A stretch of 35,430 nucleotides of DNA, taken from the UHGV virus genome UHGV-0309502. One strand, written 5' to 3'. This document shows, piece after piece, positions 24,980-25,431 of the stretch. Numbering within the stretch: the first letter of the stretch is position 1; each line of letters starts with the position of its first letter. The translations under genes were made by a program, and so were the position numbers. The notes beneath the pieces were generated by a model. The model made no database searches, was not told where the DNA came from, and saw only the letters and a program-made list of their open reading frames with translations. This DNA is from a virus.

Positions 24980-25039
24980 CAGGCAGAATTGCCGGAGTAA
25001 CAAAAAAGCGATAGATTACGCGCGGGTGCCTTTCGGCTG

Positions 25040-25135
25040 ATGGTCGGAGGGAATACCCGAAGGCCAGATGTGGAAAGGCCCCGGAAAACATTTCTGTTTA
25101 ACCGAGGCCCTAACATATCTACCTTAAGCAAGTGA
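25040..25135 (+). CDS. putative leader ORF upstream of hok (mok-like), 31 codons
   Basis: Encodes ...KTFLFNRGP...; the same peptide core is conserved in the second leader copy at 26063, with nucleotide differences that are synonymous. Confidence 0.3.
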   Translation: MVGGNTRRPDVERPRKTFLFNRGPNISTLSK

Positions 25136-25170
25136 TAGGTTAGCGCCTCTCCAACAAAGGAGCAAGCGCT

Positions 25171-25311
25171 ATGTCGCAAAAATCGCTTACGGCCATCACA
25201 TTCTGCGTGACGGTAATCCTCATCATCTGGATGCTACACGGTTCGCTGTGTGAAATACGGATGAGCTTCTGGGGAGCGGAGTTTGCGGCGTTCTTACAGT
25301 GTAAGCAGTAA
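25171..25311 (+). CDS. hok: Hok/Gef-family type I toxin (46 aa)
   Basis: Below the ORF-track cutoff; MSQKSLTAITFCVTVILIIWMLHGSLCEIRMSFWGAEFAAFLQCKQ has the N-terminal TM helix, SLCEIR signature and EFAAF tail of Hok proteins; AAAGGAG Shine-Dalgarno. Confidence 0.6.
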   Translation: MSQKSLTAITFCVTVILIIWMLHGSLCEIRMSFWGAEFAAFLQCKQ

Positions 25312-25399
25312 GGAAACCGCGACGGGGGAGCAATCCCCCGTCAATCGGTTGCTAAGGTTGGCTGAAGTGGCACCCTATCTCACAGACATGAACAACAAA

Positions 25400-25431
25400 C
25401 CCGCAGCGTAAGAACTGCGGGTTTTCTTTTT
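25400..25431 (+). terminator. rho-independent terminator at the end of the hok-like transcript
   Basis: CCCGCAG / CTGCGGG stem followed by TTTTCTTTTT. Confidence 0.65.

What the first reader, a model, noticed from the sequence alone, without database searches (positions are those of the whole stretch)
25008..25431. hok-family type I toxin locus with a conserved upstream leader ORF between ogr and the att site
A 46-codon ORF missed by the ORF track encodes a Hok/Gef-like toxin (TM helix, SLCEIR, EFAAF). Upstream is a 31-codon leader ORF. The 5' region around 25027-25050 and the 3' region around 25340-25370 show partial complementarity, as in the tac-fbi fold-back of hok mRNAs. A stem-loop and terminator follow. 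This would be a post-segregational-killing or abortive-infection module carried as phage cargo.
Basis: partly seen in the sequence, partly recalled or inferred. Interest (0 to 1): 0.5.

Follow-up and report, generated by a model that had tools for sequence, protein, structure and literature searches.

The report
Ordinary hok/Sok toxin locus on prophage
This is a routine, already-annotated member of the well-known Hok/Sok toxin–antisense-RNA family, carried as cargo next to the attachment site of a P2-like E. coli phage; the only oddity is that the usual 'mok' helper reading frame is not conserved here.

Summary
A 46-codon ORF (25171-25311) encodes a Hok/Gef toxin: Pfam PF01848 scores 30.1 bits against a cutoff of 22, and phrog_251 scores 82.8 bits. 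It sits in a ~405-nt mRNA (about 25024-25428) with the hallmarks of hok mRNAs:
- a 15-bp 5'-3' fold-back (25024-25038 with 25360-25375);
- a second long-range helix, a hairpin that sequesters the hok ribosome-binding site, a GC-rich 3' hairpin and a terminator;
- conserved antisense promoter boxes for a Sok-like RNA.

Covariation in 11 homologs and a survey of 68 unique IMG/VR copies support the fold.

The locus is not new. RefSeq annotates it as 'Hok/Gef family protein', and copies occur in 1751 of 5426 complete E. coli genomes and in phage P88. A one-residue variant was among the cloned homologs reported toxic in a 2026 preprint.

- The 31-codon leader ORF is real but not conserved, and it does not start where mok starts in other hok loci. 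That position has no start codon in 67 of 68 relatives.
- The att site is not at 25431. About 820 bp of further cargo precede attP (26251-26374, the leuZ 3' end).

Function (prophage addiction, defence or lysis aid) was not tested. Low interest.

The parts
24989..25017 (+). Putative hok promoter: -35 TTGCCG (24989-24994), 17-nt spacer, -10 TAGATT (25012-25017), 6 nt before the inferred +1
   Evidence: Read from the sequence. The position matches TATAAT-6 nt-GGGTGC of K-12 hokC and TAGGAT-6 nt-GGGTGC of hokB. A TAnnnT hexamer sits at this position in all 68 unique relatives. The consensus scan missed it (8 of 12 matches, below its 9 of 12 threshold).
25024..25428 (+). Full-length hok mRNA (inferred 5' end by homology; 3' end at the intrinsic terminator)
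   Evidence: The Rfam RF01794 model starts at 25024. In K-12 this model lies on the hok-sense strand from mRNA +1 to the hok AUG. Fold -174.6 kcal/mol, z = -8.0.
25024..25038 (+). tac-like 5' element (GGGUGCCUUUCGGCU)
   Evidence: Pairs with 25360-25375 in the MFE and centroid structures. Almost invariant in relatives. The tac-3'UTR duplex averages -26.5 kcal/mol against -13.8 for shuffled tac, and beats all 50 shuffles in 67 of 68 copies.
25040..25135 (+).
25073..25082 (+). ucb-like element (GAAAGGCCCC): pairs with the GAGG box in the closed fold, or with tac in the open fold
   Evidence: Alifold pairs columns 54-60 with 82-88. The isolated 5' 87 nt fold as tac(1-11):nt 50-59, leaving GAGG free. 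Duplex -18.3 kcal/mol.
25104..25117 (+). Conserved SD-like GAGG (25104-25107) followed 7 nt later by AUA (25115-25117), where hokB, hokC and R1 have the mok AUG
   Evidence: CCGAGGCC plus 7-8 nt plus AUG in hokC and hokB. Only 1 of 68 relatives has ATG/GTG/TTG 3-11 nt after the GAGG.
25072..25129 (-). Predicted Sok-like antisense RNA (~58 nt): free 5' tail, then hairpin GGCCUCGG...CCGGGGCC followed by UUU
   Evidence: Position matches the annotated sokC and sokB inside the Rfam model span. Fold -29.7 kcal/mol, z = -4.6. The ends are inferred, not mapped.
25137..25165 (-). Predicted Sok promoter: -35 TTGCTC (25165-25160), 17-nt spacer, -10 TAACCT (25142-25137)
   Evidence: The complement AGGTTA is present in 68 of 68 unique relatives. 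A TTGnnn hexamer lies 17 nt (60 copies) or 18 nt (8 copies) away, and is TTGACT in 8 copies. hokB has TAAGAT 7 nt upstream of the annotated sokB start.
25141..25171 (+). Hairpin sequestering the hok Shine-Dalgarno sequence (GGAG 25159-25162) and the A of the start codon
   Evidence: MFE helices 25141-25146/25166-25171 and 25149-25152/25159-25162. Kept in 11 homologs (helices 8 and 9, 93-98% of cells paired).
25171..25311 (+). hok toxin gene, 46 codons plus stop
   Evidence: Pfam PF01848 30.1 bits, above the cutoff of 22. phrog_251 82.8 bits. 43% identical to K-12 HokA. 46 codons with no indels in 11 of 11 homologs and 67 of 68 copies.
25121..25136 (+). 5' arm of the second long-range helix (overlaps the predicted Sok target); pairs with 25344-25358
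   Evidence: Alifold helix 7 has 4 pairs with compensatory double changes (UA>CG, GC>AU, AU>GC).
25321..25342 (+). GC-rich 3' hairpin, probable 3' end protector of the processed mRNA
   Evidence: 9-bp stem. 100% paired across homologs, with 4 compensatory pairs (helix 15). Its role is inferred from the R1 model (PMC9841398).
25344..25375 (+). 3' arms of the long-range helices: 25344-25358 (partner of the Sok-target region) and the fbi-like 25360-25375
25397..25431 (+). Intrinsic terminator (10-bp stem, 8-nt loop, T-run)
   Evidence: Similarity to phage P88 ends at 25431.

Best explanation
This is a hok/Sok-type type I toxin-antitoxin module. The toxin belongs to the abundant 46-residue Hok cluster related to HokA (cluster 72 of Escalera-Maurer et al.). 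The module is carried in the cargo region between ogr and attP of a P2-like (Peduoviridae) E. coli phage that integrates into the 3' end of tRNA-Leu leuZ.

Likely mechanism, by homology with plasmid R1 hok/Sok:

1. A promoter at 24989-25017 makes a stable ~405-nt mRNA.
2. Its 5' end (tac, 25024-25038) is clamped to a 3' element (fbi, 25360-25375). A second long-range helix hides the antisense target, and local hairpins hide the GAGG box and the hok ribosome-binding site. This full-length form is therefore neither translated nor bound by the antisense RNA.
3. Slow 3' trimming back to the GC hairpin (25321-25342) removes both 3' partners. tac then pairs with 25073-25082 and the leader opens.
4. 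A short, unstable Sok-like antisense RNA (~25129 to 25072, minus strand, from a conserved promoter) pairs with the opened leader and triggers decay.
5. When Sok is no longer made, Hok is translated and depolarises the inner membrane.

Shown here: family membership of the peptide, the predicted fold and its covariation, conservation of both sets of promoter boxes, and the phage location. Inferred: the transcript ends, the 3' processing, expression of Sok, the way hok translation is switched on (no conserved mok frame exists here), and the biological role.
For: Peptide
- Pfam HOK_GEF scores 30.1 bits against a cutoff of 22. phrog_251 scores 82.8 bits. BLASTP gives 43% identity to K-12 HokA.
- All seven residues conserved in more than 80% of Hok peptides are present, offset by 4 (M1, C12, T14, L26, C27, E28, E37; logo in 10.1101/2025.08.07.668861).
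- The V15A variant (72_1621) and the Stx-phage variant (72_1589) were among the cloned homologs. Only three other sequences were reported non-toxic.

RNA
- RF01794 matches 25024-25181 end to end, E = 3.9e-9. Controls show the model is the hok-sense leader that contains the antisense sok gene.
- The MFE structure has the tac-fbi clamp, z = -8.0.
- In 11 homologs of 74-99% identity, 95.5% of cells are paired. Eighteen pairs carry compensatory double changes, against 9.1 +/- 1.8 in shuffles (0 of 500 reach 18) and 1-5 in slid controls.
- Among 68 unique IMG/VR copies, hok is intact in 67, the tac-3'UTR duplex averages -26.5 against -13.8 kcal/mol for shuffled tac, and the Sok -10 and -35 boxes are present in all 68.
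- The open alternative (tac paired with the ucb-like element) is predicted for the 5' 87 nt.

Phage cargo
- Phage P88 and other Peduoviridae genomes carry ogr-hok.
- An ogr-like gene lies within ~1 kb upstream in 29 of the 68 copies.
- The window is in phage order, with attP downstream of the locus.
- RefSeq annotates the gene, and copies occur in 1751 of 5426 E. coli genomes.
Against: - Rfam scores for the window and its relatives (35-50 bits) are below the gathering score of 59. NCBIfam Hok and HokA models are also below their cutoffs.
- The mok frame that R1 requires is missing. There is no start codon after the conserved GAGG, and the window's leader ORF stops 21 nt before the hok SD. In R1, mok stops upstream of the hok SD abolish toxicity (PMC9841398).
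- The consensus promoter scan found no sigma-70 site on either strand. Both promoters rest on homology and conservation.
- There are no transcript, processing or phenotype data for this locus.
Confidence: 0.9

Rival explanations
1. The locus is a translationally silent, decaying hok copy. The mRNA and Sok may still be made, but without a mok frame that reaches the hok ribosome-binding site Hok is never translated, so the module is a relic with no phenotype.
For: The mok start position reads AUA, and the leader ORF ends 35 nt before the hok ATG. In R1, premature mok stops upstream of the hok SD abolish toxicity (PMC9841398). A clearly dead hok copy lies 900 bp away in the same phage. Chromosomal hok loci of K-12 are reported as mostly inactive (discussion in the preprint).
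Against: hok stays at exactly 46 codons, without indels, in 67 of 68 unique copies. Its substitutions show coding-type periodicity (25/12/29). Every regulatory RNA element and both promoters are conserved, with compensatory changes. The absence of mok is shared by the whole widespread cluster rather than being a private lesion. That pattern is hard to reconcile with neutral decay.
Confidence: 0.2
2. The 31-codon ORF (25040-25135) is the functional mok equivalent. Its translation would open the downstream SD hairpin and be coupled to hok translation.
For: The ORF exists. A ribosome terminating at 25133-25135 would sit next to the 5' arm (25141-25152) of the hairpin that sequesters the hok SD. 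In some relatives the same ATG opens a 70- or 87-codon frame that overlaps hok.
Against: The ATG at +17 has no Shine-Dalgarno sequence and lies inside the tac stem. Among 68 unique relatives the ORF is absent in 17 and otherwise 4-87 codons long, with stops scattered from -112 to +134 relative to the hok ATG. Only 23 have any leader ORF that reaches the hok SD. Substitutions show no codon periodicity, and indels are not multiples of three. The apparent peptide conservation (FLFNRGP) follows from conservation of the RNA hairpin.
Confidence: 0.1
3. The module is active, but its role is to help the phage rather than to addict or defend the host. It would be switched on at induction to speed lysis and release, as shown for hokW-sokW of Stx phage Sp5.
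For: [quoted passage not shown] The locus lies directly downstream of ogr, the late-gene activator gene.
Against: hokW is a different, HokD/HokC-like 51-residue toxin, not this cluster (primer sequences; Table S2). Nothing in the sequence distinguishes this role from prophage stabilisation or anti-phage defence. PADLOC has no model that matches.
Confidence: 0.25
4. Chance ORF and chance complementarity; there is no gene here.
For: Short ORFs and short inverted repeats are common.
Against: Pfam and PHROG hits, fold z = -8, covariation, and conservation in hundreds of phages and 1751 genomes.
Confidence: 0.01

Closest known systems
Hok 60%-identity cluster 72 (Escalera-Maurer et al., bioRxiv 10.1101/2025.08.07.668861), annotated 'Hok/Gef family protein' in RefSeq (e.g. 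WP_000078920.1) and 'MokW-like host killing' (phrog_251) in phage P88
   Same: Same gene. The peptide is identical in phage P88 and differs by one residue (V15A) from the tested 72_1621. The DNA is 98.8-100% identical in P88 and many E. coli genomes.
   Different: Nothing of substance. The published work covers only the coding sequence, not the mRNA elements, Sok or mok.
hok/Sok of plasmid R1 (with mok); paradigm type I toxin-antitoxin system
   Same: A small membrane toxin with the LCE motif. A 5' tac / 3' fbi clamp, an alternative tac-ucb pairing, a GAGG box sequestered in the closed form, an antisense promoter overlapping the region just upstream of hok, a GC hairpin at the processed 3' end, and a terminator.
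   Different: The peptide is 46 rather than 52 residues and distantly related. There is no start codon at the mok position and no conserved overlapping mok frame. The locus is on a phage, not a plasmid. Processing, Sok and killing have not been demonstrated.
E. coli K-12 chromosomal hok loci (hokA, hokB/mokB/sokB, hokC/mokC/sokC)
   Same: HokA is the closest K-12 paralogue (43% identity). The leader aligns over the whole RF01794 model, including GGGTGC at +1, the CCGAGGCC box and the position of sok.
   Different: hokB and hokC score 110-118 bits on RF01794, whereas this cluster scores 35-50 bits. hokB and hokC have a mok AUG 7-8 nt after the GAGG, whereas here it is AUA. K-12 hokA is disrupted by IS150.
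hokW-sokW of Stx2 prophage Sp5 (Takada et al. 2021, PMC8621323)
   Same: A phage-borne hok/Sok module with an experimentally shown toxin, antitoxin RNA and a role at induction.
   Different: It is a different locus and cluster. HokW is 51 residues, starts MKQQKAM and is HokD-like. Stx phages additionally carry a cluster-72 copy downstream of lom, 82-84% identical to the window locus.

Membership tests
Hok/Gef toxin family (Pfam PF01848) | Match to the family HMM above the curated gathering score | tested here: met
   30.1 bits against a cutoff of 22, E = 3.7e-7, residues 7-44 on profile positions 5-42 of 42. phrog_251 scores 82.8 bits. The NCBIfam HokA and Hok models match but below their cutoffs (35.8 of 89; 23.6 of 73).
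Hok/Gef toxin family (Pfam PF01848) | A peptide of about 50 residues with an N-terminal transmembrane helix and the conserved C-x-T ... L-C-E ... E pattern | tested here: met
   46 residues. Hydrophobic stretch at residues ~5-22. C12, T14, L26, C27, E28 and E37 align with C16, T18, L30, C31, E32 and E41 of the published logo.
Hok/Gef toxin family (Pfam PF01848) | Toxic when expressed | not testable with these tools
   From the literature only. The V15A variant 72_1621 and the variant 72_1589 were cloned and tested. The three non-toxic sequences named in the text are others.
[quoted passage not shown] | Leader RNA matches Rfam RF01794 at its gathering score | tested here: not met
   47.9 bits, below the gathering score of 59, though E = 3.9e-9 over model positions 1-157. 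Relatives score 35.6-50.5 bits, and the K-12 hokC and hokB controls score 118 and 110 bits. This is a divergent subfamily of the same architecture.
[quoted passage not shown] | 5' tac / 3' fbi fold-back closing the full-length mRNA | tested here: met
   25024-25038 pairs with 25360-25375 at -26.2 kcal/mol. Kept in 11 homologs through one-sided changes (helices 1 and 2, 95% of cells paired). Beats shuffled tac in 67 of 68 copies. This is prediction plus comparison, not structure probing.
[quoted passage not shown] | Alternative pairing of tac with an internal box (ucb) that frees the leader SD box | tested here: met
   The 5' 87 nt fold with nt 1-11 paired to nt 50-59 and GAGG unpaired. In the consensus closed fold, 25077-25083 pairs with 25103-25109. 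Thermodynamic prediction only.
[quoted passage not shown] | Antisense Sok gene with its own promoter opposite the leader | tested here: inconclusive
   Conserved -35 and -10 boxes with a 17-18-nt spacer in 68 of 68 copies, and a stable hairpin plus U-run. Positions match the annotated sokB and sokC. The consensus scan found no promoter, and no transcript data exist.
[quoted passage not shown] | mok reading frame that starts after the leader SD and overlaps the hok start (translational coupling) | tested here: not met
   The equivalent start is AUA (25115-25117). Only 1 of 68 relatives has ATG/GTG/TTG there, and only 23 of 68 have any leader ORF that reaches the hok SD.
[quoted passage not shown] | Slow 3' processing to an active truncated mRNA; RNase III cleavage of the duplex; killing after loss of Sok | not testable with these tools
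   Only the structural prerequisites are seen (GC hairpin at 25321-25342 upstream of both 3' partner elements).
hokW-sokW (Sp5 prophage) | Same toxin cluster and locus as the characterised hokW | tested here: not met
   The hokW primers encode MKQQKAM...DYESEK, which equals 35_712 in the HokD cluster. The window peptide is in cluster 72.

The most novel reading that the evidence does not exclude
The whole 46-residue Hok cluster, including this locus, may work without a mok-type coupling frame. Hok synthesis would then be gated purely by the RNA fold and by Sok-triggered cleavage, or by initiation at hok's own strong SD once the leader opens. That would be a natural, widespread exception to the R1 rule that mok translation is mandatory.
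Probability: 0.3. Interest if true: 0.35.

Novelty: already known. Interest (0 to 1): 0.12.

Why it matters
It matters little beyond correct annotation. The result shows that a short ORF skipped by a length-filtered ORF track is a genuine, well-known toxin gene. It also shows that P2-like phages carry hok/Sok modules beside their attachment site, in line with the reported enrichment of hok in prophages. The one point a type I toxin-antitoxin specialist might follow up is that this abundant Hok cluster conserves every RNA element of the R1 paradigm except the mok reading frame. That makes it a convenient natural test of whether mok coupling is really universal.

Tried and rejected
- Rfam at gathering thresholds over the whole window found nothing. 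The hit appears only in E-value mode.
- ARAGORN found no tRNA. The leuZ piece is only a 55-nt 3' fragment within attP.
- The sigma-70 consensus scan found no promoter on either strand. Both promoters are therefore argued from homology and conservation only.
- PADLOC has no match.
An exact DNA pattern was used instead.
- The genome-contig scan returned only 3 loci. Two carry implausible taxon labels (Vagococcus, Planococcaceae MAG) and probably reflect contamination.
- I first read 25431, where similarity to P88 ends, as the att boundary, and read the downstream hok remnant and tRNA fragment as bacterial DNA with a second prophage beyond. Comparison with both prophage ends in E. coli 55989 rejected this. 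The window is one phage genome in vegetative order.
- I first assumed that 'MokW-like' meant the characterised hokW-sokW. The published primers and Table S2 rejected this.
- I first labelled the second long-range helix ucb-dcb. I dropped that label after reading the R1 definitions.
- K-12 hokA could not serve as a leader comparison because IS150 removes its leader.

Full report
**What is there.** The window is E. coli phage DNA. Gene D (23435-24676) and ogr (24719-24979; Pfam Ogr_Delta, 52.4 bits) are followed by the region in question. The 46-codon ORF at 25171-25311 encodes MSQKSLTAITFCVTVILIIWMLHGSLCEIRMSFWGAEFAAFLQCKQ. It matches Pfam HOK_GEF above the curated cutoff (30.1 against 22 bits) and phrog_251 'MokW-like host killing' at 82.8 bits. 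NCBIfam HokA and Hok models match only below their cutoffs. The closest K-12 paralogue is HokA, at 43% identity. The peptide has a hydrophobic N-terminal stretch. It also carries all the residues reported as conserved in more than 80% of Hok peptides.

**The RNA.**
- Nothing in the window reaches an Rfam gathering score. In E-value mode RF01794 ('sok') matches 25024-25181 on the plus strand over the whole model (47.9 bits, E = 3.9e-9).
- As a control I ran K-12 hokC and hokB. The same model hits them at 118 and 110 bits on the hok strand, from mRNA +1 to the hok AUG, and the annotated sokC and sokB lie antisense inside that span. The window hit is therefore the hok mRNA leader. By position, the Sok gene should lie at about 25129 to 25072 on the minus strand.
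- The RNA 25024-25428 folds at -174.6 kcal/mol (z = -8.0).
- Its main helices are as follows:
  - the 5' end 25024-25038 clamped to 25360-25375 (-26.2 kcal/mol as a duplex);
  - a second long-range helix, 25121-25136 with 25344-25358, which buries the presumed Sok target;
  - a hairpin, 25141-25171, that sequesters the hok SD (GGAG, 25159-25162);
  - a GC hairpin at 25321-25342;
  - a terminator at 25397-25424.
- The isolated 5' 87 nt adopt the alternative in which nt 1-11 pair with nt 50-59 and the conserved GAGG (25104-25107) is free. This is the open form of the R1 model as summarised in PMC9841398.

**Comparative support.**
- BLAST found the locus in phage P88 (98.8% identity), in other Peduoviridae, downstream of lom in Stx phages (82-84%), on IncI1, IncF and IncC plasmids, and at chromosomal sites near serS and ykgM (74-86%).
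- In an 11-sequence alignment, RNAalifold recovers the same architecture. 95.5% of cells are paired. Eighteen pairs carry compensatory double changes, against 9.1 +/- 1.8 in column shuffles (0 of 500 reach 18) and 1-5 when partners are slid.
- The compensatory changes fall mainly in the second long-range helix and the GC hairpin. The tac-fbi clamp varies only on the fbi side.
- An exact-pattern scan of IMG/VR gave 68 unique parsable copies. In these:
  - hok is exactly 46 codons in 67;
  - the tac-3'UTR duplex averages -26.5 kcal/mol against -13.8 for shuffled tac;
  - the complement of the proposed Sok -10 box (AGGTTA, 25137-25142) is present in all 68;
  - a TTGnnn -35 hexamer lies 17 or 18 nt away;
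  - the hok -10 position always reads TAnnnT.

**The leader ORF.**
- The 31-codon ORF (25040-25135) exists but is not conserved. From the same ATG, relatives have ORFs of 4, 6, 20, 24, 26, 27, 28, 31, 37, 70 or 87 codons, and 17 lack that ATG altogether. Only 23 of 68 have any leader ORF that reaches the hok SD.
- Variable columns are spread 13/14/13 over the codon positions, against 25/12/29 in hok, and the indels shift the frame.
- In hokC and hokB the mok AUG lies 7-8 nt after the conserved CCGAGGCC. Here that position reads AUA (25115-25117), and only 1 of 68 relatives has ATG, GTG or TTG there.
- This cluster therefore keeps every RNA element of the paradigm except a mok frame. In R1, translation of mok up to the hok SD is required (PMC9841398). 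So how hok is switched on here is unknown. A recent survey states that Mok prediction is not trivial and did not attempt it.

**Location.** Similarity to P88 stops at 25431, but that is a mosaic joint, not the att site. In E. coli 55989, window 21680-26374 matches the ogr end of a prophage running into tRNA-Leu leuZ. Window 26251-32223 matches the other end, from next to yecA through the integrase to the replication gene. The window is therefore a single phage genome in vegetative order. The 124-bp core at 26251-26374 (the 3' 55 nt of leuZ plus its terminator) is attP. Between hok and attP lie two further features:
- a 93-codon ORF with a signal-peptide-like start (25500-25781, minus strand; phrog_27544, function unknown);
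- a dead second hok copy (26019-26141) with a 128-nt internal deletion.

**What is already known.** PGAP annotates the gene as 'Hok/Gef family protein', and the locus is found in 1751 of 5426 complete E. coli genomes, at up to 9 places per genome. The peptide belongs to 60%-identity cluster 72 of Escalera-Maurer et al. Their clone 72_1621 differs by V15A, and 72_1589 is the Stx-phage form. Of 45 homologs tested, only three others were non-toxic. The same preprint reports that hok is enriched in prophages. The characterised hokW-sokW of Sp5 is a different, HokD-like locus.

**Verdict.** The identification as a phage-borne hok-family type I toxin locus is right. The 'conserved leader ORF' and the adjacency to att are not. 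The biological role (addiction, defence or lysis aid) was not tested here. The finding is ordinary and already known. The only mildly interesting residue is the cluster-wide absence of a conserved mok frame.

Noticed in passing
window 26019-26174 (+): A second, dead hok copy. It aligns to 25010-25111 and then jumps to 25240-25267, a 128-nt internal deletion that removes the Sok promoter and target, the hok SD and the N-terminal half of hok. Its promoter -10 (TAGATT) is kept and its tac is mutated. Tandem hok copies also occur near serS in STEC1012 (L010) and in IMG/VR loci L040 and L118.
   Followed up: partly
window 25500-25781 (-): A 93-codon ORF between the two hok copies, with a signal-peptide-like N-terminus and a Cys-rich mature part. 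It matches phrog_27544 (unknown function, 193.7 bits). RefSeq calls it hypothetical (WP_001303543.1). It has no Pfam, NCBIfam or PADLOC family. Probably another cargo gene.
   Followed up: partly
window 26251-26374, and 26481-27482 (-): The attP core is 124 bp identical to the 3' 55 nt of tRNA-Leu leuZ plus its downstream terminator. It is found at both ends of the prophage in E. coli 55989. The integrase gene follows. The window is therefore a complete P2-like phage genome in vegetative (circularly permuted) order, not a prophage with bacterial flank.
   Followed up: yes
window 25431/25432: A sharp mosaic joint immediately after the hok terminator. P88 and other Peduoviridae share ogr-hok up to about this point and then diverge into different att/int modules. 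The hok module appears to travel with ogr rather than with the integration module.
   Followed up: partly
L014, L015 (K-12 hokC, hokB) and window 25024-25181: Rfam RF01794, named 'sok antitoxin', is modelled on the hok-sense strand and spans the whole hok leader up to the hok AUG. A plus-strand hit therefore marks the toxin mRNA, not the antisense RNA. The cluster studied here scores 35-50 bits, below the gathering score of 59, so default Rfam annotation misses it.
   Followed up: yes
L020 (Vagococcus sp. contig), L018 (Planococcaceae MAG contig): The exact hok pattern occurs in contigs labelled as Firmicutes genomes. In L020 the peptide is identical to the window's and an ogr-like gene lies upstream. 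These are most likely E. coli or phage contamination in those assemblies.
   Followed up: no
L007, L008 (Stx phages), about 44.5-46 kb in VT2-Sakai: Stx-converting phages carry a copy of this cluster directly downstream of lom, in addition to the separately characterised hokW-sokW. Many records leave it unannotated or label it 'hypothetical protein'.
   Followed up: partly
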